From a virus (Duplodnaviria > Heunggongvirae > Uroviricota > Caudoviricetes): DNA of 64,000 nt. Shown here in pieces: positions 1 to 53,572 of this stretch. The stretch is from positions 1 to 64,000 of the IMG/VR virus record IMGVR_UViG_3300040810_000833. The stretch is one strand, 5' to 3'. The notes under the pieces are model-generated. The model saw nothing but the letters and a program-made list of their open reading frames with translations. It was not told where the DNA came from and made no database searches. The position numbers and the translations under genes are program-made. Each line of letters opens with the position of its first letter. Within the stretch, counting starts at the first letter, position 1.

Positions 1-58
1 CGTTTTCAACCGGCCGCAGCAATCGGGCGTCTGCGGCCAGCCCATCGAACATAATTCA
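1..58 (-). repeat. Family-A repeat, truncated copy A1: first hairpin segments only (accggccgcagc ... ctgcggccagccc)
   Basis: Matches the core of copies at 476-620, 1168-1311 and 1738-1872; lies immediately downstream of the minus-strand ORF 56..343. Confidence 0.6.
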
Positions 59-343
59 GTAGCAACCCCAGCTTTCATCATCATAATCGTCATCATCAAA
101 AAGCCTATTTTCTCGACAGTCCATAGATGGATCAAGTCGAATTCCGCCAGATAGGCCAACATCTTTACCAGTCACAACGTGCATGTGTGAACCAGACGCC
201 CATTCTTTCGCCTTTTCTAGGGAAGTAAATACGGCAACTGGCTCTCCGTAGCCGTCATGGCAATAGCCCTCAAAGACAATGAATACTTCGACCGTTTCTT
301 TCACGGTGAGTTCGCGAATTATCTGTTCAGTTTTGCTTGACAT
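56..343 (-). CDS. hypothetical small protein (95 aa), acidic C-terminus
   Basis: ORF on the strand shared by neighbouring genes; family-A repeat directly downstream of its stop. Confidence 0.4.
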   Translation of the reverse strand: MSSKTEQIIRELTVKETVEVFIVFEGYCHDGYGEPVAVFTSLEKAKEWASGSHMHVVTGKDVGLSGGIRLDPSMDCRENRLFDDDDYDDESWGCY

Positions 344-475
344 AAAGACATTTCCCTCGACAAGATTTTTTGTATCCGTGGTTCAATCATACTCCTATTA
401 TCGGATATTGTCAACTACAATATTGAATGTTTTCTACTGAATTCTTATTTCATAAAAAGCCAGAGTTCTTGATTT

Positions 476-620
476 TGAGAATTTCTGGCGTCGTCTCGCT
501 GCGGCCGGTCCTTCGGCCGTTTTTCACCGGCCGCAGCGATCAAGCGTCTGCGGCCAGCCCATTCCCAGAATTGAGAAAATCCCCGCCGCTTTTCTCGGCG
601 GCGGGAATTCTGAATCTTAG
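476..620 (-). repeat. Family-A structured repeat copy A2 (~145 bp)
   Basis: Three mutually complementary segments gctgcggccgg (498-508) / ccggccgcagc (527-537) / ctgcggcc (548-555), then a GC hairpin ccccgccgcttttctcggcggcggg; the stop of gene 617..1018 lies at the repeat end. Confidence 0.8.
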
Positions 621-1018
621 AACAGCCTTTTCGGACGTCCCTTCGATACCGCACCGTCGACAAATTCTTCAAACTCGATCGATCCGGAGGATTCCACTTG
701 CTGGGCATAAATCGCAATTCTACGCTCACGTTCCTCACGGTGAGAAACGGAAGCCCTGTCACTGTTCAGCTTTTCCAGTCTCCGGAAAACCCGGTTTCCA
801 CTTACCAGCTCTCCGCTATTGTCCCGGATATCTTCCGGGAGATATTCCTGAGGAAAGTCGAGAGAAGCGAGAAAAACCAGTCCGGTATCTGCCATTAATG
901 CAGAGTAACTTCCGAAGCCCAAGTATGGCTGGCTTGAATCACCACGGACATCATCAATGGTTTTGATCAATTGTGTCATTTTCGTTTTCCCGTCAGGAGC
1001 AAAAGAAACAAAATTCAA
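617..1018 (-). CDS. hypothetical protein (133 aa)
   Basis: Minus-strand ORF whose stop codon abuts repeat A2; the overlapping plus-strand ORF 427..966 is judged spurious. Confidence 0.5.
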   Translation of the reverse strand: MNFVSFAPDGKTKMTQLIKTIDDVRGDSSQPYLGFGSYSALMADTGLVFLASLDFPQEYLPEDIRDNSGELVSGNRVFRRLEKLNSDRASVSHREERERRIAIYAQQVESSGSIEFEEFVDGAVSKGRPKRLF

Positions 1019-1167
1019 CTAAGGGGAGTCTATGCTATGTATCGACATAATGGAATGCCGAAAGCATCATTTTCGGAAAGTTTTCTGGAAAAGTACAAGC
1101 CACATCAGCCGGATTTTATGTCAAGCATCTTTTTTGATTTTTCCCATTTATGGGAGAGTTTTCCGGT

Positions 1168-1311
1168 TTCTGAGAATTTCGTTGTTCTGTCCTGCTGCGG
1201 CCGACTATCGGCCTTCTTTCAGTCGGCCGCAGCAATCAGGCGTCTGCGGCCAGCCTATCCCCAAGATTGAGAAAATCCCCGCCGCTTTTCTCGGCGGCGG
1301 GAATTAAGTCA
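1168..1311 (-). repeat. Family-A structured repeat copy A3
   Basis: gctgcggccga (1192-1202) / tcggccgcagc (1221-1231) / ctgcggcc (1242-1249) plus hairpin 1275-1299; the stop TGA of the upstream minus gene is at 1309-1311. Confidence 0.8.
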
Positions 1312-1566
1312 GAACCCGCTATGATCTTCCCAGAACTGAGAGCGGCACCCTGCGTCGACATACGCCCCGTATGTTTCTGTAGCCGACTCCTCGTTGTTAC
1401 TTTCAGGAACTTTCCCGTCATCATAGCAGAATCGACAGTAATGATCTTTACGAGTCCTTCCTCGTTTTCCAGGGTATTCGTCGACGTAACATGATTCGCC
1501 GAAATTGATACGCTCGCCACAGTTGACACACATACGGGAACGTTCTGCAGAAACTTTACGAGCCAT
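1309..1566 (-). CDS. small zinc-ribbon protein (C-x2-C ... C-x2-C), ~85 aa
   Basis: ATG at 1566 is preceded by TGGAG at 7-nt spacing; sequence CVNCGERINFGESCYVDEY...CRFCYDDG; the longer ORF 1309..1641 lacks an RBS. Confidence 0.5.
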   Translation of the reverse strand: MARKVSAERSRMCVNCGERINFGESCYVDEYPGKRGRTRKDHYCRFCYDDGKVPESNNEESATETYGAYVDAGCRSQFWEDHSGF

Positions 1567-1568
1567 CA

Positions 1569-1737
1569 ATTCGCTCCAAAAAGAACAGGGGGAAACACAA
1601 ACCACCGAGAATATACCATACATATCGACAGAACACCACAACGAATAAACAAAAAACTCAATATTATCAAATTATTCCAATAATTCAGAGCTTGAAATAT
1701 TCCCAAACATAAGACAAGTTTCCCGAGTCTGGGAATT
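1569..1737 (-). promoter_or_regulatory. AT-rich putative promoter/leader region for the zinc-ribbon gene
   Basis: ~170 bp of AT-rich non-coding DNA between repeat A4 and the gene start; no precise -35/-10 assignment possible. Confidence 0.25.
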
Positions 1738-1872
1738 TTGAATTTTCTCTTGTTCTGTCCTGCTGCGGCCGACCATCGGCCTTCTTTCAGTCGGCCGCAG
1801 CAATCAGGCGTCTGCGGCCAGCCTATCCCCAGAATTGAGAAAATCCCCACCGCTTTTCTCAGCGGCTGGGCG
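1738..1872 (-). repeat. Family-A structured repeat copy A4 (second hairpin degenerate)
   Basis: Near-identical to A3 over ~110 bp. Confidence 0.8.
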
Positions 1873-1926
1873 GGTGCTGACAATCAGCAACACACAACGA
1901 ACGAAAAGGCCGCACAGCCTTAACGA

Positions 1927-2055
1927 TTAACAACGTCGTGTACTTTGCCGCACAACCAAACGCCACAAATCAGGGCGTTCAGAACGCAGGCCGGGCAACC
2001 CGACACGCTTGATAATTTCCCGTATTTCCTTTTTTTGTCTTGATCGTATGTCCAT
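1927..2055 (-). CDS. hypothetical small basic protein (~42 aa)
   Basis: Internal ATG at 2055 is preceded by GGAAG at 7 nt; the ORF table gives a longer version, 1927..2118. Confidence 0.3.
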   Translation of the reverse strand: MDIRSRQKKEIREIIKRVGLPGLRSERPDLWRLVVRQSTRRC

Positions 2056-2328
2056 GCTGCAACTTCCTATAAAGTAAACTTGGCAATGGGATTGTACTTG
2101 TTTATCGGCAGGACACAACTCATTTATTCAGGGAAATCTCTTTTTTACTGGAAAAGTGGGGTCAATAGATAATAAGCAATTTCCCGAAAATTAGAGAGTT
2201 TTCTTGGTTTTGATAATCCACGCCGTCTCGCGGCGGCTGACACAGCAGCTTACACGGGTCAGCCGCTGCGATGAGGCATATTCGGGCACACCACATAATG
2301 GAGAGTCTTGTTGTATTGATCGTTCACG

Positions 2329-2399
2329 TACCGTTCCGTTGCGGTTATTTTCTTCAGCCTCCCATCCTGCTGGCTGATCGGCCGAATGCAGGAAACTCA
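2329..2399 (-). repeat. Family-B repeat copy B1 (degenerate stem)
   Basis: gttgcggttatttt-cttcagcc...ctgctggctgatcggccgaatgcaggaaactca; the upstream gene's stop (tca, 2397-2399) lies inside the conserved 'gaaactca' end. Confidence 0.7.
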
Positions 2400-2681
2400 G
2401 CCCTTGGAGACGTCCCAGTGTCGGCATTCCCACGTTGACTGGGTTGTGTATGGATTTCCGTGCTGTTTTGTAACAGCCAGCCTCTGGATGCTTTCTCTGC
2501 TGCTATTCAGTTTCTGACCCCTCAGTAGAAACGAGAAAGCACTCGGATTGATTTCGCGACGTTCCTTACCACGCATAATGAAGAATTCCGGAGGATCAGA
2601 AACCCCATTCCACTGATGAACTGACCAGAGAAGAATGAAGTCGTCAAAATGGAAGAACCGCATTTTGTAGATGCTGTGCAT
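2397..2681 (-). CDS. hypothetical protein (94 aa)
   Basis: ORF ending in repeat B1 in the same way as other B-associated genes. Confidence 0.4.
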   Translation of the reverse strand: MHSIYKMRFFHFDDFILLWSVHQWNGVSDPPEFFIMRGKERREINPSAFSFLLRGQKLNSSRESIQRLAVTKQHGNPYTTQSTWECRHWDVSKG

Positions 2682-2766
2682 GATAAACCCTCAAGAGTTA
2701 GACAACAGAAAACCACCAACGGGACCTTACCGGAAGTATCGGCAAATGTCCAGGCCTAACTTAAAA

Positions 2767-2782
2767 GAATTCTGCAGAATTC
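2767..2782. promoter_or_regulatory. Perfect 16-bp palindrome GAATTCTGCAGAATTC (operator-like)
   Basis: Read directly from sequence; a second identical copy is at 3638-3653 and related copies sit in C-family leaders. Confidence 0.5.
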
Positions 2783-2801
2783 TCGGTTTTGTCTGAATTG
2801 T

Positions 2802-2869
2802 CGTTTCGTTGCGGTTATTTGCTTCAGCCGACCAGCCTGCTGGCTGATCGGCCGAATGCGGGAAACTCA
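2802..2869 (-). repeat. Family-B repeat copy B2
   Basis: Imperfect hairpin gccgaccagcc-tgc-tggctgatcggc; stop of gene 2867..3052 is at the 'aactca' end. Confidence 0.8.
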
Positions 2870-3052
2870 TTTGCTATCCATCATTTGCTGATGGATATTG
2901 TCTCGGTGATCCGCATCGTCCCTGATTTCCTGCCAGAACTCTTCCCAGTCGTTCGCAAGCTGTTGTTCACGCTGGCGTTCTGCAAGCCATTCTGAATATG
3001 CTACGCACTCTTCCAGGTCTTCACACTGCAGGGAGATATCGAAACTCGACAT
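2867..3052 (-). CDS. small acidic protein (61 aa), paralog of 3739..3939
   Basis: ~70% aa identity to the 66-aa paralog (FDISLQCEDL..AYSEWLAER...DWEEFWQEIRD...NIH.QMMDSK). Confidence 0.6.
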   Translation of the reverse strand: MSSFDISLQCEDLEECVAYSEWLAERQREQQLANDWEEFWQEIRDDADHRDNIHQQMMDSK

Positions 3053-3185
3053 TCTTACAACTCCTTCAGAATTTCAATCGGGTACTGACGATCAGTACCA
3101 ACAACAGCATCATGACTAACATCGGCAGGCCTTGCAATCCATCTGGACACAATTCCGGGAGATTTTTGAGATTTGGGAATAGTTT

Positions 3186-3254
3186 CCGCCCCGTTGCGGT
3201 TATTTGCTTCAGCCGACCAGCCTGCTGGCTGATCGGCCGAATGCAGGAAACTCA
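3186..3254 (-). repeat. Family-B repeat copy B3
   Basis: Same core as B2; stop of gene 3252..3563 is inside the 'aactca' end. Confidence 0.8.
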
Positions 3255-3563
3255 ATCTAGTTCGATCGTGTACTCTACTGCACGGATATATCTGTGAAGT
3301 TTGTCCCCGATCTCTGTAATCGTTCTGCCGGTTACTCTACCGACAGACAGGAAACGTTTGATTGAGTCAGCAGCACGATTCCTGACCGTCCCATGCGTAC
3401 CGTCTTCGCTTTCAAGCAGGGAAGTGTTCGCTGCTTCATACTGTCGGACGCTTTTCGAATACCATCCATCGTTTTCTGTCCCGCAGAAGATTCTCGCAAG
3501 AGTCTCCCCGGCAGAATTCACAACAGTAACACGCAGAGCCATTGAGTACATGGTTAACTCCAT
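3252..3563 (-). CDS. hypothetical protein (103 aa)
   Basis: ORF on the minus strand between the duplicated B modules. Confidence 0.45.
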   Translation of the reverse strand: MELTMYSMALRVTVVNSAGETLARIFCGTENDGWYSKSVRQYEAANTSLLESEDGTHGTVRNRAADSIKRFLSVGRVTGRTITEIGDKLHRYIRAVEYTIELD

Positions 3564-3637
3564 TCTGGATTTTTAACAAAAGGCCACATGCAGGAACTTA
3601 CCAGAAGTATCGGCAGCTGTCCAGGCCTAGCTTGAAA

Positions 3638-3653
3638 GAATTCTGCAGAATTC
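3638..3653. promoter_or_regulatory. Second copy of the 16-bp palindrome GAATTCTGCAGAATTC
   Basis: Read directly. Confidence 0.5.
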
Positions 3654-3671
3654 CAGATCCTAGAAATTGTT

Positions 3672-3741
3672 TCCGTTTCGTTGCGGTTATTTGCTTCAGC
3701 CGACCAGCCTGCTGGCTGATCGGCCGAATGCGGGAAACTCA
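3672..3741 (-). repeat. Family-B repeat copy B4
   Basis: Identical core to B2. Confidence 0.8.
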
Positions 3742-3939
3742 TTTGCTATCCATCATCTGCCGATGGATGTTGTCTTCGTGCTCTGATTGGTCCCTGATTT
3801 CCTGCCAGAATTCCTCCCAGTCTGTAGCGAGCCGTTCCTGCCTTTTCCGTTCAGCGAGCCATTCGGAATAAGCTTCGCAATCAGACAGATCTTCACACTG
3901 CAATGAGATATCAAACGTACACAAACCGAGCATATCCAA
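3739..3939 (-). CDS. small acidic protein (66 aa), paralog of 2867..3052
   Basis: Paralogy plus the same downstream B repeat. Confidence 0.6.
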   Translation of the reverse strand: MDMLGLCTFDISLQCEDLSDCEAYSEWLAERKRQERLATDWEEFWQEIRDQSEHEDNIHRQMMDSK

Positions 3940-4063
3940 ACTCCGTTAGGGTTTCAGAATGTTGCTTACAATCAGCAACAGGATCAGCATTAGAATCAAC
4001 ATCGACCAACCTTGCAATCCACCTTGACACAATCCCGGAGAATTCCAGAGATTGGAAATTGTC

Positions 4064-4128
4064 TCCGCTTCGTGGCGGTTATTTGCTTCAGCCGACCAGC
4101 CTGATGGCTGATCGGCCGAATACAGGGG
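4064..4128 (-). repeat. Family-B repeat copy B5 (3' end diverged)
   Basis: gtggcggttatttgcttcagccgaccagcctgatggctgatcggccgaat. Confidence 0.7.
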
Positions 4129-4167
4129 TTACAATCATCACGAGCCTTGTGGTATTTTCAAATTACA

Positions 4168-4239
4168 CTCCGCTCCGTTCCGGCTTGCATCATCCAGACT
4201 GCCTGGGCAGGCAATCCGGCTTCTGCGGCTAACTCACTA
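4168..4239 (-). repeat. Family-C repeat copy C1
   Basis: ccggcttgcatca.ccagactgcc-NNG-ggcaggcaatccggc, i.e. outer stem ccggcttgc/gcaatccgg with inner stem ctgcc/ggcag and a 3-nt loop; stop of gene 4237..4443 at the 'aactca' end. Confidence 0.8.
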
Positions 4240-4443
4240 TCCGTTATTCAGTTCCTTCAGTGTCTCTCGCAACCGGGCGATCAGTAGGGGGCTGACTGGG
4301 ATTCTGATGCTTACCTGTGTCCCGTCCTCCTCGATGAAATCCAGGTGGATGCCAGGCCCGTCAGAACCACTCATCGACTCGAACACATAAGGACTGTACT
4401 CACTTGGTAACTCAACCGTCTTCTGGACTTTCACCTTCGCCAT
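4237..4443 (-). CDS. 68-aa protein, family-C gene copy 1
   Basis: Paralogs at 4612..4818 and 5412..5621 (VELPS.YSPYVFESM.GSDG.G..LDF.EEDGT.V..RIP..P.LIA.L...L). Confidence 0.6.
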   Translation of the reverse strand: MAKVKVQKTVELPSEYSPYVFESMSGSDGPGIHLDFIEEDGTQVSIRIPVSPLLIARLRETLKELNNG

Positions 4444-4506
4444 TTCGCTTGCTCCCGTAGGTAGGTTATCGTCGGGACTGCCTGAAGTCCAGGCTGTTCC
4501 CAGGGT

Positions 4507-4540
4507 GAATCCTGCAGAATCTCACAATTGAGAATCTGCG
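4507..4540. promoter_or_regulatory. Operator-like imperfect inverted repeat gaatcctgcagaatctcacaattgagaatctgc in the leader of the family-C gene
   Basis: Recurs at 4883-4912, 5310-5340 and 5684-5712; PstI-core palindrome related to the B-unit 16-mer. Confidence 0.45.
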
Positions 4541-4544
4541 GTCG

Positions 4545-4614
4545 TCGTCTCGTTCCGGCTTGCATCAGCCAGACTGCCTCGGCAGGCAATCCGGCCTTTG
4601 CAGCTAACTCACTA
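4545..4614 (-). repeat. Family-C repeat copy C2
   Basis: As C1, loop tcg. Confidence 0.8.
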
Positions 4615-4818
4615 TCCGTTGTTCAGTTCCTTCAGGGTGTCTTGGAGTCGGGCAATCAGTAGGGGGCTGACTGGGATTCTAACGCTTACCTGCGTTCCAT
4701 CCTCCTCGATGAAATCCAGGTGGATTCCAGGTCCATCAGAACCGCTCATCGACTCAAACACGTAAGGATTGTAGTCTCCGGGCATGTCCACGATCTTTTG
4801 CACTCTCATCTTCGCCAT
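4612..4818 (-). CDS. 68-aa protein, family-C gene copy 2
   Basis: ~80% identity to copy 1. Confidence 0.6.
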   Translation of the reverse strand: MAKMRVQKIVDMPGDYNPYVFESMSGSDGPGIHLDFIEEDGTQVSVRIPVSPLLIARLQDTLKELNNG

Positions 4819-4920
4819 TCGCTCGCTCCCGTAGGTAGGTTATCGTCGGGACTGCCTGAAGTCCAGGCTAGTCTCCGGGAAAGTTCTGCAGAATCTCACA
4901 ATTGAGAACCTGCAATCATC

Positions 4921-4996
4921 GTGCCGTTCCGGCCTTGCATCAGCCAGACTGCCCCGGCAGGCAATCCGGCCTCTGCGGCCAACTCAATTCAGTCTA
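4921..4996 (-). repeat. Family-C repeat copy C3
   Basis: As C1, loop ccg; follows the unrelated gene 4994..5209. Confidence 0.8.
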
Positions 4997-5209
4997 GTGC
5001 TGGCACCGATTTTCAAACTCAGTAATGAACCAGCCACGAGCGTTTAGGGCTTCGTCTGCGGTGCATCCGTCGGCAAGGCAACCGTCTTGCACGTTCAGAG
5101 AATAAGACGCCATGCACTCTTCAGGGCTTTCGTAGCAGTCGATCTGGTCCAGTGCTATTAGCAGGTTGCTGTCGACATGCTGTTGAATTGTCTGCTCGTG
5201 CCTGCTCAT
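4994..5209 (-). CDS. hypothetical acidic Cys-containing protein (71 aa) inserted in the C array
   Basis: ORF with its stop at the start of C3; no similarity to the 68-aa family. Confidence 0.45.
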   Translation of the reverse strand: MSRHEQTIQQHVDSNLLIALDQIDCYESPEECMASYSLNVQDGCLADGCTADEALNARGWFITEFENRCQH

Positions 5210-5349
5210 TGCTGTCGCCTTTCGTGGTTTGTGTTTGCTTTGGTGTTCGTGCCTCGCATGTACGCACTATATCGTCGGGACCGCTTGAAGTCCAAGCCGT
5301 TCCCCGGTTGAATCCTGCAGAATCTTACAATTGAGAACCTGCAATCGTC

Positions 5350-5414
5350 GTGTCGTTCCGGCTTGCATCAGCCAGACTGCCCCGGCAGGCAATCCGGCTT
5401 CTGCGGCTGACTCA
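5350..5414 (-). repeat. Family-C repeat copy C4
   Basis: As C3. Confidence 0.8.
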
Positions 5415-5621
5415 GTCATTCTCTGTGGATGTTCTCAGTTTCTCTTTCAATAGGGCAATCAACTCCGGCGTGATCGGGATTCTGACATTGACCGTTGTAC
5501 CGTCTTCCTCGGTGAAGTCTAGGCTGACGCCCATCCCGTCGCTGCCGTGCATCGATTCGAAGACATAGGGGCTGTAATCGCTGGGTAGCTCAACCATCTT
5601 GTGGATTTTGATTTTTGACAC
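5412..5621 (-). CDS. ~69-aa protein, family-C gene copy 3 (GTG start inferred)
   Basis: Aligns with the paralogs from a GTG at 5619-5621 (VSKIKIHKMVELPSDY vs MAKVKVQKTVELPSEY); an ATG at 5596 is the alternative start; the longer ORF 5412..5786 runs through repeat C5 and is rejected. Confidence 0.5.
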   Translation of the reverse strand: MSKIKIHKMVELPSDYSPYVFESMHGSDGMGVSLDFTEEDGTTVNVRIPITPELIALLKEKLRTSTEND

Positions 5622-5714
5622 TCGTTGCTCCCGTATGTAAGTTATCGTCGGGACCGCCTGAAGTCCAGGCTGTTCCCCGGTTGAATCCTGCAGAATCTCA
5701 CAATTGAGAAACTG

Positions 5715-5770
5715 CGATCGTCGTTTCGTTCCGGCTTGCATCAGCCAGACTGCCCCGGCAGGCAATCGGG
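5715..5770 (-). repeat. Family-C repeat copy C5 (3' part diverged)
   Basis: cgtttcgttccggcttgcatcagccagactgccccggcaggcaatcgggc. Confidence 0.7.
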
Positions 5771-6230
5771 CTAGTAGGGGAGGCACGGACGAGAGGGTGG
5801 TGGTTTTTCGTTCAAATTCAGTACCGTATTGGTCAGTATTTTCTCCGAGGGGGGTTCACCCACCACTCCCCCACCAAAATCAAATTGTACTACCCAAACT
5901 AGCCTACTCACCTACAAAGCATAAATCAGGCTATTACCGTCCCATGAGACTATTCAAGTCCCGATGGTTCGCAAAGTGCTAACTGGTAAGCGACGTTTCA
6001 ATAGTGTCTCATTACGTTGCGGTGACAAGCCTAAGTCACGATATTCGCGGTCTACGGCGACATATCCTCTATTACTAGAACGCCCTATTGCCCTGTCTCG
6101 CCGGATTGATTAGTTCCGGCGTACCAACTTCCAGCCATCCTCTAGCTCTGTCCTGCTCACTCTGAGAGGCCCGAATGCGGTCAACACGGGAAAGCTTAAC
6201 GCCGCATATTTCAGAACAGTCCTTCGATTC

Positions 6231-6656
6231 TTAGCACTCTTTTGGGGCGAGAATTGCCGCCCACGCAGGAACTCCTCGACGGAGTCTGCCTCTTAGTACA
6301 TCATAGCTAACAACGCATCGTTCGTCTCTGCTCCACTCTGAAATTGTCTTACTTTCTCCAAAACATTCAATAAATACGTTATCGACTCTATTGTTTGCAT
6401 TTTCAAGCAGGCTGACAACTCTAAGATTCTCGCGAGTATTATTGAGTCGATCTTTATCGATATGGTCTACAATCAAATCCGGGTCTGTAACGCCCAGGAC
6501 AAATCGATGCATCCGAACTTCTTTTCCTCGAACCTTAGTTAAGGCATATCCTTGGCGGTAATACCAGCTATGTCTTTTCACAGATTCGTAGTCTTGAGTA
6601 CTAACTTTTGCGAATTTTCCACCCGCATTTGCTCCATTTAAACGAATTTCAAGCAT
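6231..6656 (-). CDS. HNH homing-type endonuclease (HNH_3/AP2-like)
   Basis: HRFVLG...DHIDKDRLNNTRENLRVV...ENANN motif pattern. Confidence 0.75.
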   Translation of the reverse strand: MLEIRLNGANAGGKFAKVSTQDYESVKRHSWYYRQGYALTKVRGKEVRMHRFVLGVTDPDLIVDHIDKDRLNNTRENLRVVSLLENANNRVDNVFIECFGESKTISEWSRDERCVVSYDVLRGRLRRGVPAWAAILAPKEC

Positions 6657-6805
6657 TTTATTTTCCTTCTTGGGGGTATAATACTTTATCTTTTACTGAA
6701 AGTGGAAAAACATGAAAGCAATTCCAGAAAGCGGCGTCTCTGAAATGGTTAAAGCAGATTTATCTGTTCCAGACCCGCCAACAAATATAGCAATGGGAAT
6801 AATTA

Positions 6806-7303
6806 ATGAGCCCAACACAAGAGCAGATAAAGACGATCCTAAGAGTAATTGATAGGATTGCTCCGTCTTACGTATTTGGATTCTACGAAGTTGACGACAT
6901 AAAACAGGAGTCATACATTATATGCCATGAAGCACTACAGAGGTGGGATCAAATCCGTCCTTTGGAAAATTTCTTATCAAAAAACCTATCAAATCGACTG
7001 AAAACGCTGATTAGGGATAGGTACTCAAGGGCGACGACTACGTCGGCAAGGCATGCTGAGCTTAATGAAAGAAAGAAACGACTTGTTGACTTGAGACCGG
7101 CAAGCGGAAATTATGAACCTGTTAAAGACTTTGAGAGCGTAATGTTGACAAGAGAAGCAATTGAGCATGCGAGAACAAAAGTTGACCCAAAAACAAGGAA
7201 CGACTTAGATCGAGTACTTAGCGGGGTTTCAATCCCAGCAGTAAAAAGAAGAAGACTTTACAACAAAATACGGGAGATCTTAGGTGAAAGTTGGACGCCT
7301 TAG
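6806..7303 (+). CDS. sigma-70-family-like protein (putative phage sigma factor)
   Basis: Region-2-like IKQESYIICHEALQRWD; C-terminal segment AVKRRRLYNKIREIL is possibly HTH-like. Confidence 0.4.
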   Translation: MSPTQEQIKTILRVIDRIAPSYVFGFYEVDDIKQESYIICHEALQRWDQIRPLENFLSKNLSNRLKTLIRDRYSRATTTSARHAELNERKKRLVDLRPASGNYEPVKDFESVMLTREAIEHARTKVDPKTRNDLDRVLSGVSIPAVKRRRLYNKIREILGESWTP

Positions 7304-8349: not shown

Positions 8350-8958
8350 ATGGCTCGCGTGTTAGTAGCTTGTGAATTTAGCGGAATTGTAAGAGACGCC
8401 TTTCGCAAACGAGGTCATGATGCATGGTCTTGCGACTTAGAACCAGCAAGCGAATCGCAATACAGTCAATTTCATCTTCATCAAGACGTAAAGGGGGTTC
8501 TTGATCAGAAGTGGGATATTATCATTGCCCATCCTCCATGCACATATCTTTCTAATTCTGGAGTATGTCATCTACATACGCAAGAAGGAAGATGGGAGCG
8601 GATGAATGATGGTTGTGATTTCTTTAGCCTGTTTCTAAACCTAGACTGCGAAAAGGTTTGCATTGAGAACCCAATTCAGCACAGGTATGCTAGAGAGAGA
8701 ATAAGAAAATACGATCAGATAATACAGCCCTACCACTTTGGGCATCCAGAAAGTAAGGCTATTTGTTTATGGCTCAAGGGTCTTCCTCCATTAGTTCATA
8801 CTAATGATGTAAAAGCCTATATGATGACTCTTCCAAAAAAAGATCGTCAAAGAAATCATTACATGAGTCCAGGTAAAGACCGTGGCAAGTTGCGAAGTAT
8901 CTTTTTCACCGGAATAGCAGATGCTATGGCAGAACAATGGGGAGGTCAAAATGAATGA
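8350..8958 (+). CDS. minimal C5-cytosine-methyltransferase-like protein (motifs FSG / PPC / ENP)
   Basis: VLVACEFSGIVRDAF (motif I-like), IIIAHPPCTYLSNSG (PC motif IV-like), CIENPIQH (ENV motif VI-like); 202 aa with no evident target-recognition domain. Confidence 0.45.
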   Translation: MARVLVACEFSGIVRDAFRKRGHDAWSCDLEPASESQYSQFHLHQDVKGVLDQKWDIIIAHPPCTYLSNSGVCHLHTQEGRWERMNDGCDFFSLFLNLDCEKVCIENPIQHRYARERIRKYDQIIQPYHFGHPESKAICLWLKGLPPLVHTNDVKAYMMTLPKKDRQRNHYMSPGKDRGKLRSIFFTGIADAMAEQWGGQNE

Positions 8959-10228
8959 TTTTTCAGTAAAAATAGGAAGGCGAAGTTTACTAAAGGCTGG
9001 ATTTCTTGCTGCTGCAATGCCAAAGATTTTCGCGGACATTAAGGATTTTGAGAGCGTTGAGGGTCCAGCCAAAAGTGTAATCTTTATCTATCTACCTGGC
9101 GGTATTGCCGCACAAGAAAGTTTTGACCCGAAACCATTAGCCCCTACTGAGTACAAGGGTGCTATGAGTAGCATCCAAACAAGTATTCCGGGTGTGTTTT
9201 TCAATGAAAAACTCGCAATGACATCAAAGCTTGCTGATAAGCTCACGATAATTCGAAGCATGACTCATGGAGAGGCTGCACATGAGCGTGGAACGCATAA
9301 TGTTTTTACTGGCTACAGACCGAGTCCAGCACTCAGCTATCCATCGATCGGCTCAGTTGTTAGTCATGAATTTGGCTCTAGAAACAATCTTCCCCCTTAT
9401 ATTTGCATTCCTAACAAACCAAATGAATTCGCTGGCACTGGTTATCTCAGTAGTTCCTATGGTGCTTTCAGTTTAGGTTCTGACCCCGCTAGAGATGACT
9501 TTAAAGTTAGGGATCTTGCAAGCGAAATTGGAAATGCGAGGTTCTCAAGACGTCGAAGCACGCTGGATTTGATAAACGGCGGCTTCATAGAAGAGAACAA
9601 AAACGCCGACAATGTCAACGCCATGAATTCATTTTACGAAAGGGCGTATGAGCTTATCTCAAGCGTGGAGGCACAAGAGGCATTTAAGCTAGAGAAAGAG
9701 TCCGCAGAGACGCGAGAAAGATACGGGAAAAACACAGCTGGAGCAAGAATGCTTCTTGCCCGCAGACTTGTAGAAGCTGGTGCAAGGTTTGTGACACTAA
9801 CATACGGAAGTTGGGATATGCATGACGATATCGCCAACGGAATTAACAAACAGATGCCGTCATTCGACCAAGGGTTTTCTGCCCTAATCTCCGATCTCTC
9901 TGATAGAGGTATGTTTGACTCTACGATGGTTTGTGTTGTTTCTGAGTTTGGCAGGACTCCAAAGATTAATAACACTTCTGGGAGAGATCATTGGCCCCGA
10001 GTATTTAGTTCAGTCCTCGCGGGCGGTGGATTTAAGGGCGGGATGGTGTATGGTAAATCAGACTCTACTGGTTCAGAGCCAGAAGAGAACGCCGTGGAAA
10101 TACCGCACTGGGCCGGAACTATCTACAGTCAAATTGGAATAAATCCAGATAAAGAGTTGATGGCTCCTGGTGATAGACCTATCGAAATAGTTGACTTCGC
10201 CAAGGTCATTAAAGAAATAATTCAATGA
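8951..10228 (+). CDS. DUF1501-family protein with a twin-arginine (Tat) signal
   Basis: RBS GGGAGG then ATG 8951; GRRSLLKAGFLAAAMP Tat motif; C-terminal RDHWP...GGGFKGGMVYGKSDSTGSEP typical of DUF1501 (sulfatase-like fold). Confidence 0.7.
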   Translation: MNDFSVKIGRRSLLKAGFLAAAMPKIFADIKDFESVEGPAKSVIFIYLPGGIAAQESFDPKPLAPTEYKGAMSSIQTSIPGVFFNEKLAMTSKLADKLTIIRSMTHGEAAHERGTHNVFTGYRPSPALSYPSIGSVVSHEFGSRNNLPPYICIPNKPNEFAGTGYLSSSYGAFSLGSDPARDDFKVRDLASEIGNARFSRRRSTLDLINGGFIEENKNADNVNAMNSFYERAYELISSVEAQEAFKLEKESAETRERYGKNTAGARMLLARRLVEAGARFVTLTYGSWDMHDDIANGINKQMPSFDQGFSALISDLSDRGMFDSTMVCVVSEFGRTPKINNTSGRDHWPRVFSSVLAGGGFKGGMVYGKSDSTGSEPEENAVEIPHWAGTIYSQIGINPDKELMAPGDRPIEIVDFAKVIKEIIQ

Positions 10229-48899: not shown

Positions 48900-50542
48900 T
48901 TCTCCTCGCAGTCTATAAGTTTTGATCTATCGTTTCTTACTGATTCCCAGATGTTGTAATTATCAAGCCTTCTTCTAAAGAAGTTAAGTAGCTTTTCTCT
49001 TGTTAGCGGAGTTTTTACTGAGTCCGAAATTGGTGAGTTTTCTGTCGAAAAGAATCCGTCAAAAGACCCTCCAGTAACCCCTCTATTGAGATCCCTATGA
49101 AGGGACGCGACAAACTGAGAATTTTTATGCGACTCATTATATAGATAATTGTCAGACACGAACTGCATAAACGCAGCATTTGATAATTCATTCACAGGAT
49201 TGTTTGGCGTCTGAATGATCCGAGTCGGCTGCTTCCAATCGGCATACTCAGAACGATCTATTATATCAGACCAAACCCCCGCTGATTTTTCCCAGCTGTA
49301 GTTTTCTTCAAATTGACGCCTAGTTGATCTCGCTAGTTCTATCTGCTGATCTTTTGTCTTTTTTAAGAAGAACAACCTAAATGTATTCAGAATCGATTCT
49401 TTTTCTGGAGTCGCTCTATAACACCCCGTCTCTAATTCTTTGTATAGGGATTGTACCTTTAGGGGATATGCACCAGCCCTGTAAATAAGGTCATCCATCG
49501 CTGAATATTCAACAGATGCTAATGGAATTCCACAAGCCGCTGCTTCAACCTGCGGCAGGCCAAACCCTTCAGAGTTAGCACATTGAATATAGAAGTCGAA
49601 CAAGTTATAGATCTTTGCCAGCGTCTCATCGCTAACTCCAGACCCGACACTGGATGGTCTTGAGTCAAACTTTTTACATTTCCCGCACCGCCTTGCGGCA
49701 TCTCTAAAGTAGCAAACCTCTAAGTTTTTGCACGAACTGCAAACATAAGAAAACAAAACGCGAGACGAGATATTGTATTCGTTTAGTAGACTAGCTATAT
49801 TCCAGCCGTTATCAGGATAGCTTGTATGGCAGTATAAATAAGTGTTGGTCAACCCTGATGAATGAATGTATTCGGAAAAAGCTTCAAACAGTAAAGGATA
49901 GAGTTTCCGTCTTTGGTTACGCATGACGGTGCCAATTATTTTAACATTATTGTCAACGCCGAATTCTTCACGTATAGACGCCTTGTCCATAGGCCTGAAA
50001 CAATCAGATGCTGACGGAGAGGCCACTCCACATAGGTTCAGAGAGCTTCCAGCTTGTTTTTTTAGGACGTTGCTCGCCCATTCTGAATAGGTTAGTAGGT
50101 AATCAACATCACTAAATACACTCAGCCACTCATTATTTTGGGGGGCTGCGTCGACAGTAGGCATCCATGCCCACTGAAAGATTCGCCTAAACGGAGAGTG
50201 GTATATGAATGAATCCATCCAGTAATCACGGATCGAAAGAACAATATCTGGTTCAAAGTCTAGGCACACCCTCTCAAAACGCCAAGACCCGAACTGGTTA
50301 ACCTTTGACGAGTCGTATACACTGCAATGCTCTTTGTTGGACCCCTCTGGCATATTTGGGTAGTTACGCCATTTTATTGAACTTCTTCTGTCGTCATCAA
50401 CGCCGCCATAGCCAGAAAGCTCTGCCAGGTCGTATTTGCCAGAGTCGTGCAACCTATTCATGATTTCTCTTGTATAGGTCGCATAACCCGTACTAAGATA
50501 ACTAGCCTCTGTAACAAAGAGTACTCGTTTTTTTCTAGGCAT
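48887..50542 (-). CDS. glycosyltransferase family 1/4 (GT-B) with an inserted Cys-rich segment
   Basis: EGFGLPQVEAAACGIPLASV (E-x7-E motif), KRVLFVTEASYLSTGYATYT N-terminus; CSSCKNLEVC...CGKCKKF insertion. Confidence 0.75.
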   Translation of the reverse strand: MPRKKRVLFVTEASYLSTGYATYTREIMNRLHDSGKYDLAELSGYGGVDDDRRSSIKWRNYPNMPEGSNKEHCSVYDSSKVNQFGSWRFERVCLDFEPDIVLSIRDYWMDSFIYHSPFRRIFQWAWMPTVDAAPQNNEWLSVFSDVDYLLTYSEWASNVLKKQAGSSLNLCGVASPSASDCFRPMDKASIREEFGVDNNVKIIGTVMRNQRRKLYPLLFEAFSEYIHSSGLTNTYLYCHTSYPDNGWNIASLLNEYNISSRVLFSYVCSSCKNLEVCYFRDAARRCGKCKKFDSRPSSVGSGVSDETLAKIYNLFDFYIQCANSEGFGLPQVEAAACGIPLASVEYSAMDDLIYRAGAYPLKVQSLYKELETGCYRATPEKESILNTFRLFFLKKTKDQQIELARSTRRQFEENYSWEKSAGVWSDIIDRSEYADWKQPTRIIQTPNNPVNELSNAAFMQFVSDNYLYNESHKNSQFVASLHRDLNRGVTGGSFDGFFSTENSPISDSVKTPLTREKLLNFFRRRLDNYNIWESVRNDRSKLIDCEEKWLN

Positions 50543-51005
50543 GTTGCTTGATTCTTATCTTTGCTCTCTTGATTAATTGCGAAACTCTTGTATTGCTTAT
50601 CCCAAGGTTTGAAGCTACTTCTCTATGCGTGAGCCCGTTGTATTTCATAGTCACCACACGCCTTAGATCCGGTTCGGCGTCAGGGCCAACAAAATCTTCA
50701 AGATCGAGATGCTCTTCCGAATAACCACAATTAAAGGCGGATTCGATTGATAAAATTTTCTTGGAAGATTTGCCTGCTCTTGCAATTTCTTTGAGCATCG
50801 CGTTTCTAGATACATGGTAAACAAATGTTGTTTCTGCCCCCCTCGATCTGTCATATTTTTCCACGTTTTCAATTAAAGCCAAAAAGCCAGACTGGGCCAA
50901 GTCGTCGGGATGGTTCGAGTCATCACTTAGCTTGTGTGCAATACTCCATACTAGGTCACTATGTCTTTCAATTAACTCATGTGATTTCATTAAAAATCTC
51001 CTCAA
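50535..51005 (-). CDS. ECF-type sigma-70 family sigma factor
   Basis: Region 2 (DLAQSGFLALIENVEKYD) and region 4 HTH (REVASNLGISNTRVSQLIKRAKIRIK). Confidence 0.75.
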   Translation of the reverse strand: MRRFLMKSHELIERHSDLVWSIAHKLSDDSNHPDDLAQSGFLALIENVEKYDRSRGAETTFVYHVSRNAMLKEIARAGKSSKKILSIESAFNCGYSEEHLDLEDFVGPDAEPDLRRVVTMKYNGLTHREVASNLGISNTRVSQLIKRAKIRIKQHA

Positions 51006-51331: not shown

Positions 51332-52894
51332 CTAAATTTCAAAAATGCGATCAACTATGAATGAATTTCTTTCGGCGTCCTTTATCTCGCCAGAGAGTAG
51401 CACGGTAGACCTCTCGTATATTATAGCCTTGTTCTGCTCGTACAAGTCTGGAAATATTACAATATTCTCCAGTTCTCCAGAATTGTCTTCCGCAGAAGCA
51501 AAAGCCATCAAATCCCCATTGCTTGTTCTGTGCTCTCGGAGTCTTGTAATCATTGCGGCGACGATGCAATTTCCACGTCTACCTTCGTTCACCTGTAGAC
51601 ATGTAGCGTTTGCGTGAGACGCATTTGAGCACGCCGTTAACTCCGAGTAGTTTATTGCATGACCTAAAAGACGTTCTTCTTCTCGGGCGTAAGTAACTGG
51701 ACTATCGCTCAGGTCTCTTCCGGGATTCTGGAGTCTCAACAGAATCTCTTGAACCTTATTCATTCTGCTGATACGTGAGATAAATCCACCCTCTTTCTTT
51801 AGACCTTTCCCTAAGAAACGCTCAACAAGTTCAGTTACAGACATGTCAAGGACGTTGAAGTATTCGCGAATGGAATTAATTTCTCCGTTAGTTAAGCCTT
51901 CGCTTATGCACTCAAAATCATGAAGCATTCGTGTCCTACTCTGACCAAAACCAGAAAATGCACCAGAGGAGATAAGACTTTTGACAGCCCGTTTATTTAC
52001 ATCTGTAAGGACGTGCATTAAAAGGAGGGTCCAATTGAATCTTTCTACCGGAATTCCAATGTCTTTAATTTTTTTTCTCAATTTGGCAACGTCTGAAGAC
52101 CCAACGTTTTTTATATTGCATAAACCAAAGGATATTATATGCTCGCCATCCTCGATCGACATCGTGAAATCTTCTTCGAGAAGTCTAATACTTGGACCTC
52201 TAAACAAAATCCCCTCCGACATAGCCGCGAGGATAAGCTGTCTTTTCTCAAGGTCTGGGTTGATTTTTTCCTTTGCGTCACGTAGCCACTCCCTAGTAAA
52301 TTTAAGAAACCTATAGTATCTTAGATATGCTGACCAGTAAGAAATTTTTGCATAAGCCACTGCGTGTGATTTATTGAATGAGTATCTAGCTGATTTCTCA
52401 ATCATGTCAAACACTTTGGTAGAAACATCGTTCGGTATACCATTTGAGGAGGCACCCTCTAGAAATTTAACCCTGATTTGACTCATTAGGTCAGCTTTCT
52501 TTTTACCGATCGCCTTTCTGAGATCATCCGCCTCCTTTAGGTTAAAACCAGCCATTTTCACGGCGATTTCCATCGCTTGCTCCTGATACACAATGACCCC
52601 ATATGTATTATCTACAACAGAGTCAATTGACGGGTGCAGTGATGGAACTTCATCCTTACCGTTCTTTCTGTCGGCGTAATGCTGCGTCATGGACTTTCCG
52701 TCCTGCTTCGCCTTTAATGTTCCAGGCCTTATGACACTAATTACATCCGCTAGTTCAAGTATTGATGTCGGCTTGATTGCTTTGCACCAGTGCTTACCAA
52801 GGCTCCCCTCAATTTGAAAACAGCCTTTTACGCGACCCTCGCCAAACATTCTCCATACATCTTGATTAGATTCATCTGCTTCGGTAATATTCAT
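51332..52894 (-). CDS. dnaE: DNA polymerase III alpha subunit (DnaE), C-terminal fragment (fingers / beta-binding region)
   Basis: KGCFQIEGSLGK...VISVIRPGTLKAK...TYGVIVYQEQAMEIA...LRKAIGKKK aligns with E. coli DnaE AVFQLESRGMKDL...ALFRPGP...YGIILYQEQVMQIA...LRRAMGKKK. Confidence 0.85.
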   Translation of the reverse strand: MNITEADESNQDVWRMFGEGRVKGCFQIEGSLGKHWCKAIKPTSILELADVISVIRPGTLKAKQDGKSMTQHYADRKNGKDEVPSLHPSIDSVVDNTYGVIVYQEQAMEIAVKMAGFNLKEADDLRKAIGKKKADLMSQIRVKFLEGASSNGIPNDVSTKVFDMIEKSARYSFNKSHAVAYAKISYWSAYLRYYRFLKFTREWLRDAKEKINPDLEKRQLILAAMSEGILFRGPSIRLLEEDFTMSIEDGEHIISFGLCNIKNVGSSDVAKLRKKIKDIGIPVERFNWTLLLMHVLTDVNKRAVKSLISSGAFSGFGQSRTRMLHDFECISEGLTNGEINSIREYFNVLDMSVTELVERFLGKGLKKEGGFISRISRMNKVQEILLRLQNPGRDLSDSPVTYAREEERLLGHAINYSELTACSNASHANATCLQVNEGRRGNCIVAAMITRLREHRTSNGDLMAFASAEDNSGELENIVIFPDLYEQNKAIIYERSTVLLSGEIKDAERNSFIVDRIFEI

Positions 52895-53562: not shown

Positions 53563-53572
53563 AAATTACCCC

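What the first reader, a model, noticed from the sequence alone, without database searches (positions are those of the whole stretch)
476..1872. Family-A element has three mutually complementary segments (alternative hairpins) with compensatory covariation
Take copy A3 as the example. Segment 1 gctgcggccga (1192-1202) and segment 2 tcggccgcagc (1221-1231) form a perfect 11-bp stem. Segment 2 can instead pair with segment 3 ctgcggcc (1242-1249), so the two hairpins are mutually exclusive, as in attenuator or switch architectures. In copy A2 the closing pair of stem 1-2 changes from A/T to G/C on both arms (gctgcggccgG 498-508 / Ccggccgcagc 527-537). This is a compensatory double change, and it argues for selection on the structure rather than the sequence. 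A second GC hairpin (ccccgccgc-ttttctc-ggcggcggg) follows.
Basis: seen in the sequence. Interest (0 to 1): 0.65.

Follow-up and report, generated by a model that had tools for sequence, protein, structure and literature searches.

The report
Conserved hairpin linker between phage cassettes
A roughly 70-base repeat lies between small, separately promoted early genes of an uncultured estuarine phage; it folds into a 15-bp hairpin preserved by compensatory mutations and looks like a transcription-unit boundary and recombination linker, not an attenuator switch.

Summary
The A copies carry perfect inverted repeats of 13-14 nt (496-509/526-539, 1193-1206/1221-1234, 1761-1773/1790-1802), a third complementary segment, and a second GC hairpin. 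The A3 coordinates in the finding are 2 nt too low.

The window is a tailed-phage genome. Bases 1-5800 are the end of a >16-kb array of about 35 small ORFan genes, all on the minus strand. Most of the cassettes that follow an A core have their own consensus sigma-70 promoter.

I collected 30 distinct A cores from related metagenome contigs. The seg1:seg2 stem extends to 15 bp. It is 97.5% paired, and five of its pairs show changes on both sides. The seg2:seg3 pairing and the inner hairpin show no covariation. A divergent A-like copy at 2226-2292 lacks seg3 altogether.

The element lies after the upstream stop codon, often after a true terminator, and before the next promoter. It is therefore not in a 5' leader, and the long stem has no U-tract on the coding strand. 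An attenuator or riboswitch is not supported.

A cores are 99% identical between two phages whose flanks are 91-92% identical. Cassette deletions, replacements and one circular junction all have breakpoints in them.

Best reading: a structured boundary and linker element resembling the T4-type PeSL cassettes. Its exact function is unproven.

The parts
1..47 (-). A1. Partial A core, cut by the window edge. The full copy is seen in L134 from about 3792. It has no T1 hairpin.
   Evidence: Covariance-model hit at 1-43, 47 bits, truncated; alignment.
56..343 (-). 95-aa ORFan cassette gene, between A2 and A1.
   Evidence: ORF list. The identical protein occurs on 11 metagenome contigs. No Pfam or PHROG family.
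386..414 (-). Sigma-70-type early promoter of the 95-aa cassette (TTGACA-17-TATGAT). It lies between A2 and the ORF.
   Evidence: 11 of 12 matches.
494..560 (-). A2 core. Stem arms at 496-509 and 526-539. Inner GGCCG repeat at 514-519. Seg3 at 548-555.
   Evidence: Covariance-model hit, 94.6 bits; inverted repeat I3; folds.
571..605 (-). T1. Intrinsic terminator on the coding strand: stem CCCGCCGC/GCGGCGGG (581-605) followed by AUUUUCUCAA.
   Evidence: Terminator scan; fold.
617..1018 (-). 133-aa ORFan cassette gene.
1190..1256 (-). A3 core. Stem arms at 1193-1206 and 1221-1234. Seg3 at 1244-1251.
   Evidence: Covariance-model hit, 81.2 bits; inverted repeat I4; folds.
1267..1301 (-). T1 terminator of the A3 linker (hairpin 1277-1301 plus U-tract).
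1309..1641 (-). 110-aa ORFan cassette gene.
1758..1824 (-). A4 core. Stem arms at 1761-1773 and 1790-1802. Seg3 at 1812-1819.
   Evidence: Covariance-model hit, 80.4 bits; inverted repeat I5.
1835..1870 (-). Variant T1 terminator of the A4 linker (CCAGCCGCUGAGAAAAGCGGUGGGG plus U-tract).
2226..2292 (-). Divergent A-like core. It has a 14-bp stem (2228-2241 / 2258-2271) with one A.C mismatch and one further compensatory pair. It has the same GAGACGG tail but no seg3 motif.
   Evidence: Covariance-model hit, 34.5 bits, E 9e-6; inverted repeat I7; folds.
2289..4126 (-). Family B linkers (2289-2392, 2759-2862, 3144-3247, 3631-3734, 4023-4126) with their ORFan cassettes. The 11-bp hairpin contains a G.U pair on the coding strand.
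   Evidence: Repeat family D3; folds.
4176..5770 (-). Family C linkers (about 4176-4240, 4551-4615, 4926-4990, 5354-5418, 5727-5770) with their cassettes. They share the 5' motif GAGTTRGCCGCAGA with family A. The 13-bp stem has three G.U pairs on the coding strand only.
   Evidence: Repeat families D1, D2 and D6; weak covariance-model hits; folds.

Best explanation
What it is. The family-A element is the conserved linker between neighbouring gene cassettes in the early, hyperplastic ORFan region of an uncultured tailed phage. Read on the coding (window minus) strand, each unit runs in this order: ORF stop; often an intrinsic terminator T1; a motif GGCYGGCCGCAGACGC; a 15-bp GC-rich hairpin with an A-rich loop containing GGCCGA; a tail GRGACGR; TTCTCA-type palindromes; and, 65-100 nt further on, the next cassette's own sigma-70-type promoter, Shine-Dalgarno sequence and ORF.

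How it most likely works (inferred, not shown).
(a) The hairpin is made in the sense-strand RNA at the 3' end of each early transcript. There it marks or insulates the unit boundary, acting as a back-up terminator or roadblock, as protection against 3' exonucleases, or as a processing site.
(b) Its near-identical sequence in many copies provides the homology through which cassettes are deleted, duplicated and swapped. T4-type PeSL cassettes work in this way.

Status of each step.
- Shown: the anatomy, the covariation in the long stem, the conservation, and the breakpoints.
- Inferred: the RNA-level role and the consequence for recombination.
For: Context.
- Phage identity: terminase, tape-measure protein, DNA polymerase, helicase, primase, RecA and sigma factors.
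- All array ORFs are on the minus strand and have no known family.
- The array continues more than 10 kb beyond window position 1 in contigs L134-L136 of the same phage.
- In 150-kb relatives the same interval is only about 3 kb.

Separate transcription units.
- There are 20 matches to TTGACN-N16-18-TANNNT on the sense strand of the 20.3-kb composite, against 1.1 in shuffles.
- Most of them end 34-44 nt before a start codon, and 8 of the 11 A cores are followed by one.
- T1 is a canonical terminator on the minus strand.

Structure.
- The 15-bp helix is 97.5% paired, with 5 pairs changed on both sides (19 cells). 0 of 500 shuffles reach the score, and slid controls give 0-2 such pairs.
- The divergent copy at 2226-2292 adds one more compensated pair.
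- U.G wobbles at the two helix ends fit the sense strand.
- The equivalent B and C linkers fold much better on the sense strand because of G.U pairs: C is -33.6 versus -22.1 kcal/mol, and B is -31.6 versus -28.7.

Constraint.
- A cores are 99.2% identical between two phages whose ORFs are 91.0% and other intergenic DNA 92.0% identical.

Shuffling.
- L160 lacks the 95-aa cassette, with the junction in an A core.
- L155 replaces a cassette between the 3' edge of an A core and the next promoter.
- L137 is a 1257-bp assembler circle closed through a chimeric A copy.

Orientation.
- All of the roughly 40 distinct copies lie in one orientation relative to the genes.
Against: - No U-tract follows the long hairpin on the sense strand, so it is not a canonical intrinsic terminator.
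- Where T1 is present and efficient, the hairpin would rarely be transcribed from upstream.
- The central 12 bp are perfect Watson-Crick pairs, so the helix fits DNA as well as RNA. Seven A.C cells on the sense strand would be G.U on the other strand.
- The invariant 5' motif, the GGCCGA in the loop and the GRGACGR tail are not explained by a plain hairpin.
- The covarying pairs come from few haplotypes (about 5-6 events). Template-switch repair of quasi-palindromes could produce them without selection.
- No expression data are available.
Confidence: 0.5

Rival explanations
1. DNA-level regulatory site. The GC-rich inverted repeat, with the three GGCCGCAG/CTGCGGCC copies and the flanking TTCTCA-N4-TGAGAA palindromes, is bound as duplex or cruciform by a phage or host protein. 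That protein switches all the early promoters on or off together, like an array-wide operator or stoperator.
For: - The element lies 65-100 nt upstream of consensus early promoters, and after a terminator, so it is largely outside transcripts.
- The sequence, not only the pairing, is very highly conserved: 99.2%.
- The 8-mer occurs three times per core, and short palindromes flank the core.
- The central stem has no wobble pairs.
Against: - Copies within one genome differ by compensated changes in both arms. A single binding protein would not require that.
- Many equally good early promoters in the same array have no A core.
- The B and C linkers in the same position need G.U pairs, which points to RNA.
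- No candidate regulator was identified.
Confidence: 0.17
2. A selfish or neutral repeat. Either it is a small non-autonomous mobile element of REP or MITE type that spread through the array, or it is a quasi-palindrome kept uniform by gene conversion and template switching, with no function of its own.
For: - The conserved block has sharp boundaries against unrelated flanks.
- Copies within one genome are more alike than copies in the related genome: type 2 here, types 2b and 3 in the L153 phage.
- The cores are near-identical while the flanks have diverged.
Against: - All copies share one orientation, and all sit at the same place relative to the stop codon and promoter.
- There are no terminal inverted repeats and no target-site duplications.
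- No transposase or RAYT was found among the window ORFs scanned.
- None was found outside this phage lineage in viral contigs.
- Three unrelated linker families occupy the same position, which argues for a positional function.
Confidence: 0.13
3. Site-specific recombination site. The hairpin is the recognition structure of a recombinase that captures and excises cassettes, as attC sites do in integrons.
For: - The layout is an array of small, unrelated ORFs separated by structured repeats of several families.
- Cassettes are present or absent between related phages, and there is a circular two-cassette junction.
- The boundaries of the core are sharp.
Against: - There are no RYYYAAC...GTTRRRY boxes. 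The B and C ends read GTT...AAC, the reverse order (read).
- Most cassettes in the A-linked part of the array carry their own promoters.
- One replacement ends at a promoter, not at a second core. The chimeric L137 junction crosses over inside a 36-nt identical stretch, as homologous exchange would.
- No integrase was found in the window or the loci.
Confidence: 0.07
4. A two-state RNA switch. The long hairpin (seg1:seg2) and the two-hairpin fold (seg2:seg3 plus inner:seg1) alternate to control termination or RNA fate.
For: - The two folds are mutually exclusive.
- For the commonest subtype the two-hairpin fold is predicted 3-4 kcal/mol better, and for subtype 2b the two are nearly equal.
- On the + strand the seg1:inner hairpin is followed by a T-run.
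- Seg3 and the loop motif GGCCGA are conserved.
Against: - The element is not in the leader of any gene.
- No U-tract is present on the coding strand.
- Seg2:seg3 and inner:seg1 show no covariation, and seg3 does not follow a change in seg2.
- Subtypes 1 and 3 strongly favour the long hairpin.
- The divergent member lacks seg3.
- There is no Rfam family match.
Confidence: 0.08

Closest known systems
PeSL (promoter-early stem-loop) cassettes of T4-type phages (Arbiol et al. 2010, PMC2839356; Comeau et al. 2014, PMC4122927)
   Same: - Repeated intergenic regulatory modules in a hyperplastic region full of ORFans.
- Strong sigma-70-like early promoters combined with stable stem-loops that separate the units.
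- Indels and replacements between related phages end in the motifs.
- Exchange between nearby copies gives small circles. Compare the 1257-bp circular assembly L137.
   Different: - In PeSLs the stem-loop lies within or right next to the promoter, and the motif is short. Here the hairpin is a separate, roughly 70-nt, highly conserved core 65-100 nt upstream of the -35 box, with extra invariant motifs.
- There are at least three unrelated linker families (A, B, C).
- The host phage is a siphovirus-like, uncultured estuarine lineage with no sequence similarity to T4-type phages.
- Terminator activity has not been tested.
Intrinsic (Rho-independent) terminators
   Same: The neighbouring T1 hairpin (581-605, 1277-1301) is a textbook case on the minus strand: a GC stem followed by a U-tract. 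The A hairpin occupies a 3'-UTR position.
   Different: The A hairpin itself has no U-tract on the coding strand. It is longer (15 bp) and has a 12-16-nt loop.
RNase III processing hairpins between phage T7 early genes, and REP-type 3' stabiliser hairpins of enterobacteria (from general knowledge, not tested here)
   Same: These are repeated, structured elements between cistrons. They define or protect mRNA 3' ends without being terminators.
   Different: There is no sequence relation. No cleavage or stability data exist. REPs occur in both orientations and genome-wide, whereas the A copies lie in one orientation and only in the array.
Integron attC sites
   Same: These are structured, imperfectly conserved repeats of several sequence families that separate small, unrelated gene cassettes.
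   Different: There are no R/L boxes and no integrase. Most cassettes in the A-linked part of the array have their own promoters, and the breakpoints look homologous rather than site-specific.
Transcription attenuators and riboswitch expression platforms
   Same: They have mutually exclusive helices built from three or four complementary segments.
   Different: The position is wrong (3' of a gene and upstream of the next promoter). There is no U-tract on the coding strand, and only one of the alternative helices covaries.

Membership tests
PeSL-type promoter/terminator cassettes | A strong sigma-70-like early promoter in each unit | tested here: met
   20 matches on the sense strand against 1.1 in shuffles, most ending 34-44 nt before a start codon. 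The promoter at 414-386 matches 11 of 12 positions. Only one of the strict-pattern matches lies inside the window; A3, A4, B and C cassettes have at best weaker promoter-like sequences.
PeSL-type promoter/terminator cassettes | A stable stem-loop within or directly adjoining the promoter motif | tested here: inconclusive
   Stable hairpins are present, but the A hairpin lies 65-100 nt upstream of the -35 box as a separate conserved block. PeSL subclasses place the stem-loop from the upstream AT-rich region to just after the -10 box (PMC2839356).
PeSL-type promoter/terminator cassettes | Location between ORFans in a hyperplastic region | tested here: met
   The ORFs have no Pfam or PHROG family. 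The interval is >16 kb here and about 3 kb in relatives.
PeSL-type promoter/terminator cassettes | Indels and replacements between related phages end in the motifs | tested here: met
   L160 deletion, L155 replacement and L137 junction.
PeSL-type promoter/terminator cassettes | Formation of mini-circles | tested here: inconclusive
   L137 has an exact 99-nt terminal overlap. A circle and a tandem duplication cannot be told apart from an assembly.
PeSL-type promoter/terminator cassettes | The stem-loop terminates or attenuates transcription | not testable with these tools
   This needs reporter or Term-seq data.
Attenuator / riboswitch | Lies in the 5' leader, between the promoter and the regulated ORF | tested here: not met
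   The promoter lies between the element and the downstream ORF (shown in the window for A2; 8 of 11 cores in the composite), and the element follows the upstream stop codon.
Attenuator / riboswitch | A terminator hairpin plus U-tract that competes with an earlier-formed antiterminator | tested here: not met
   There is no U-tract on the coding strand. On the + strand the hairpin followed by the T-run is the first structure transcribed.
Attenuator / riboswitch | Evolutionary support for both alternative helices | tested here: not met
   Only the long helix covaries. Seg2:seg3 and inner:seg1 do not.
Attenuator / riboswitch | A match to a described RNA family | tested here: not met
   Rfam 15 at the E-value threshold gave only two weak, unrelated hits.
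Integron attC | RYYYAAC ... GTTRRRY core sites in that order | tested here: not met
   Read directly. The A ends carry neither box, and the B and C ends read GTT...AAC on both strands.
Integron attC | An associated IntI tyrosine recombinase | tested here: inconclusive
   None among the window ORFs scanned or the called genes of the loci. About a dozen of the 46 window ORFs of at least 150 aa were not scanned, and the roughly 150-kb genome is not fully in hand.
REP/BIME or MITE | Dispersed copies in both orientations, with TIR/TSD or a cognate RAYT or transposase | tested here: not met
   One orientation, array only. No TIR or TSD was seen, and no transposase was found.
Intrinsic terminator (applied to the A hairpin itself) | A GC-rich stem immediately followed by a U-tract on the transcribed strand | tested here: not met
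   The sense strand continues GAGACGAC or AGGACAGA. The separate T1 hairpin does meet the criterion.

The most novel reading that the evidence does not exclude
The A, B and C linkers could be a new class of phage cassette-boundary RNA or DNA structures with an active role. One possibility is a bistable sense-strand RNA (long hairpin versus two hairpins) that a phage or host nuclease or RNA-binding protein reads to time the decay or processing of early ORFan transcripts. Another is a structured site used by an unidentified enzyme to excise and capture promoter-bearing cassettes as circles, making the array a phage counterpart of an integron.
Probability: 0.12. Interest if true: 0.7.

Novelty: new variant of a known kind. 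Interest (0 to 1): 0.45.

Why it matters
Phage ORFan arrays are where host-takeover and anti-defence genes turn over fastest, and how they are rearranged is known in detail only for T4-type phages. This case shows the same logic in an unrelated, uncultured estuarine phage: self-contained promoter-gene units joined by conserved structured linkers. Here the linker is longer, under stronger constraint, and has real base-pair covariation. It also comes with direct metagenomic evidence of cassette loss, replacement and a circular or duplicated junction. The result is a concrete, testable element for studying transcription insulation and modular gene exchange in environmental phages. It also removes a false lead for a riboswitch or attenuator.

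Tried and rejected
- Integron attC reading. No AAC...GTT boxes, no integrase, and most cassettes in the A-linked part have promoters, so I rejected it.
- Rfam scan of 1-7000 on both strands at the E-value threshold. Nothing relevant.
- tRNA scan of the window. None found.
- blastn of 1-6000 against 50,697 phage records. No match.
- IMG/VR pattern scan for seg2-N10-seg3. 13 loci, all chance matches in unrelated GC-rich DNA.
- Genome-contig scan with an A/C-shared 17-base pattern.
- The search for related loci with the 68-aa cassette protein in viral contigs. Nothing.
- An outer helix closing the whole core (CUGGC with GCCAG in the tail). It is only 66.5% paired and has no clear covariation, so I do not claim it.
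- N4-type hairpin promoter idea. The phage has no virion RNA polymerase (the 1947-aa protein is a tape measure), and the loop size is not conserved.
- Small-RNA gene on the + strand. No promoter-like site lies upstream.
- Search for B and C copies in related contigs, to test their G.U pairs by covariation. They occur only in the same phage.
- tblastn of TerL against cultured phages. The best hit is 25-28% identical, so no cultured relative or annotated analogue exists.
Full report
**Observation.** The sequence is as described.
- An independent inverted-repeat scan finds perfect arms at 496-509/526-539 (A2), 1193-1206/1221-1234 (A3) and 1761-1773/1790-1802 (A4). A 93% pair lies at 2228-2241/2258-2271. 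Together these four are the longest spaced (non-overlapping-arm) inverted repeats within 40 nt in the 64-kb window.
The A3 coordinates are 2 nt too low.
- Seg3 (ctgcggcc) is at 548-555, 1244-1251 and 1812-1819.
- The second GC hairpin is at 581-605 and 1277-1301, with a variant at 1845-1870. A1 (1-47) is cut by the window edge and lacks it.
- The core 16-mer occurs 4 times against 0.16 expected. Both strands fold far better than shuffles, with z from -3.7 to -5.0.

**Context.** The window is a tailed-phage genome.
- It encodes a large terminase, a tape-measure protein, a split DNA polymerase, a DnaB-like helicase, a primase, RecA and two sigma factors. It has no close cultured relative.
- Bases 1-5800 are an array of small ORFs, all on the minus strand, with no Pfam or PHROG family.
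- The ORFs are separated by repeats of three families (A, B, C) plus one divergent copy.
- Looking up the 95-aa ORF returned contigs of the same phage at 99.9% identity (L134-L136). They show that the array continues more than 10 kb beyond window position 1, up to a DUF7227 gene.
- In 150-kb relatives (65% identity on the neighbouring 263-aa protein) the same interval is only about 3 kb and carries different repeats. This is therefore a hyperplastic region.

**Anatomy on the coding strand.** I printed every intergenic region of a 20.3-kb composite. The order is:
1. ORF stop.
2. Often a canonical terminator, T1 (CCCGCCGC..GCGGCGGG followed by AUUUUCUCAA).
3. The A core.
4. TTCTCA-type palindromes.
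5. A near-consensus promoter, TTGACA-atgcCGATAa-N-TAtAAT.
6. A GGAG Shine-Dalgarno sequence and the next ORF.

The promoter pattern occurs 20 times on the sense strand against 1.1 in shuffles. Most matches end 34-44 nt before a start codon, and 8 of the 11 A cores are followed by one 65-100 nt downstream. Only one strict-pattern match lies inside the window, after A2; the cassettes after A3, A4 and in families B and C have weaker promoter-like sequences. Most cassettes are therefore their own transcription units. The A element lies at the boundary, 3' of one gene and upstream of the next promoter.

**More copies and covariation.** One metagenome scan with a pattern that left the distal stem free returned 15 further contigs from related phages. 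That gave 40 distinct 92-nt cores and 30 distinct 61-68-nt cores.

| Helix (alignment A2 columns) | Cells paired | Pairs changed on both sides | Shuffles reaching the score |
|---|---|---|---|
| Long stem seg2:seg1, 15 bp (22-36 with 51-66) | 97.5% | 5 (19 cells) | 0 of 500 |
| Seg3:seg2 (6-13 with 25-32) | 98.3% | 0 | not above shuffles |
| Inner hairpin (43-48 with 54-59) | 82.2% | 0 | not above shuffles |

- In the long stem the five pairs are CG/UA, UA/GC, GC/AU, UA/CG and CG/UA. Slid controls give 0-2 such pairs.
- In seg3:seg2, the two sequences in which seg2 has T to G carry the compensating change in seg1 and not in seg3.
- A covariance model built from the alignment finds the four window copies, the divergent copy at 2226-2292 (34.5 bits) and weak hits on family C. 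It finds nothing in the 150-kb relatives.
- The divergent copy and its two relatives keep the hairpin with a further compensated pair, and they keep the GAGACGG tail. They have no seg3.

**Which strand, RNA or DNA.**
- The central 12 bp are perfect Watson-Crick pairs, so they do not discriminate.
- Wobbles at the helix ends (U.G in 12 and 9 sequences) fit the coding strand. Seven A.C cells would fit the other strand.
- The B and C linkers occupy the same position, and in B the upstream TGA stop lies inside the repeat. They fold clearly better on the coding strand because of G.U pairs: C is -33.6 (z -4.6) versus -22.1 (z -2.1), and B is -31.6 versus -28.7.
- This points to sense-strand RNA, but it is indirect evidence for family A.

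**Alternative folds.**
- For subtype 2, the commonest in this phage and the subtype of A2, the two-hairpin fold (seg3:seg2 plus inner:seg1) is predicted 3-4 kcal/mol better than the long hairpin on both strands.
- Subtype 2b is nearly degenerate.
- Subtypes 1 (A3, A4) and 3 favour the long hairpin.
They are not conserved across the family and are not supported by covariation.
- On the + strand the seg1:inner hairpin is followed by a T-run and scores as terminator-like. It is the first structure transcribed and has no competitor upstream, so it cannot act as a regulated attenuator.

**Constraint and turnover.**
- Between this phage and a 92% relative (L155), six orthologous A cores are 99.2% identical. 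ORFs are 91.0% identical and other intergenic DNA 92.0%.
- Copies within a genome resemble each other more than copies in the related genome: type 2 here, types 2b and 3 in L153. This indicates selection, gene conversion, or both.
- L160 lacks the 95-aa cassette, with the junction in an A core.
- L155 replaces an 83-aa cassette by an unrelated small ORF, between the 3' edge of an A core and the next promoter.
- L137 is a 1356-bp contig with an exact 99-nt terminal overlap. It represents a 1257-bp cycle of two cassettes closed through a chimeric A copy. The crossover lies in a 36-nt identical stretch, too short to be a k=99 graph artefact.
- No integrase or transposase was found among the ORFs scanned.

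**Interpretation.** The closest described system is the PeSL cassette of T4-type phages. PeSLs combine strong early promoters with stem-loops between ORFans in hyperplastic regions, and they mediate modular shuffling and form mini-circles (PMC2839356, PMC4122927). The element here works like that in layout and in its evolutionary consequences. It differs in three ways:
- it is a separate, longer, highly constrained core upstream of the promoter;
- it carries invariant motifs that a plain hairpin does not explain (the seg3 motif, GGCCGA in the loop, and the GRGACGR tail);
- it occurs in three families.

I commit to a boundary and insulator hairpin in early transcripts that also serves as recombination homology (0.5). 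The rivals are a DNA operator or cruciform (0.17), a selfish or neutral repeat (0.13), a two-state switch (0.08) and a site-specific recombination site (0.07). The attenuator reading fails on position, on the lack of a U-tract on the coding strand, and on covariation.

Noticed in passing
window 8921-10228 (+): A full-length DUF1501 gene (Pfam E 2e-107) lies among the packaging genes of the phage. It looks like a host-derived auxiliary gene. From general knowledge, this family is typical of Planctomycetota and Verrucomicrobiota, which hints at the host.
   Followed up: no
window 6806-7303 (+) and 50535-51005 (-): The phage carries two ECF-type sigma factor genes. The second has clear Sigma70_r2 and r4 domains. 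The first is homologous to ORFs flagged Sigma70_r2 (weak) in relatives. This fits host sigma-70 driving the early array and phage sigma factors driving later genes.
   Followed up: partly
window 51332-55390 (-): The DNA polymerase is split into two ORFs, matching the N and C halves of phrog_405. An RNase_T/DnaQ-like exonuclease ORF (52891-53562) lies between them.
   Followed up: no
composite of L135+L134 (sense strand); in the window 386-414 (-): The early promoters share a conserved spacer motif (TTGACA-atgc-CGATAa-...-TAtAAT) and a fixed gap of about 40 nt to the start codon. The CGATA element is unexplained.
   Followed up: partly
L137 1-1356: This contig has an exact 99-nt terminal overlap, giving a 1257-bp cycle of the 133-aa and 95-aa cassettes closed by a chimeric A copy. 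It could be a mini-circle or a tandem duplication in that sample.
   Followed up: partly
window 2397, 2867, 3252, 3739 (minus-strand stops): In family B the TGA stop codon of the upstream ORF lies inside the conserved repeat (TGAGTTTCC), so unrelated ORFs end at the same repeat position.
   Followed up: no
window 4237-4443, 4612-4818, 5412-5618 (-); 2867-3052 and 3739-3939 (-): There are paralogous cassette genes within the linker runs: three 68-aa-type copies in family C and two 61/66-aa copies in family B. Parts of the array therefore grew by tandem duplication.
   Followed up: no
window 2766-2783 and 3638-3653: Perfect palindromes GAATTCTGCAGAATTC lie downstream of B linkers. They are related to the TTCTCA-N4-TGAGAA palindromes that flank the A cores and may be operators.
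   Followed up: no
L134 11463-11536 (+), beyond window position 1: A tRNA-Lys(ttt) gene lies inside the cassette array. The window itself has no tRNA.
   Followed up: no
L140 5945-6056, 7512-7603; L141 8634-8741: The 150-kb relatives carry a different 92-113-nt intergenic repeat. It has a GAGCGGCC..GGCCGCTC hairpin and back-to-back sigma-54-like TGGCAC-N5-TTGC motifs. There are also five 18-nt tandem repeats near the divergent promoter region.
   Followed up: no
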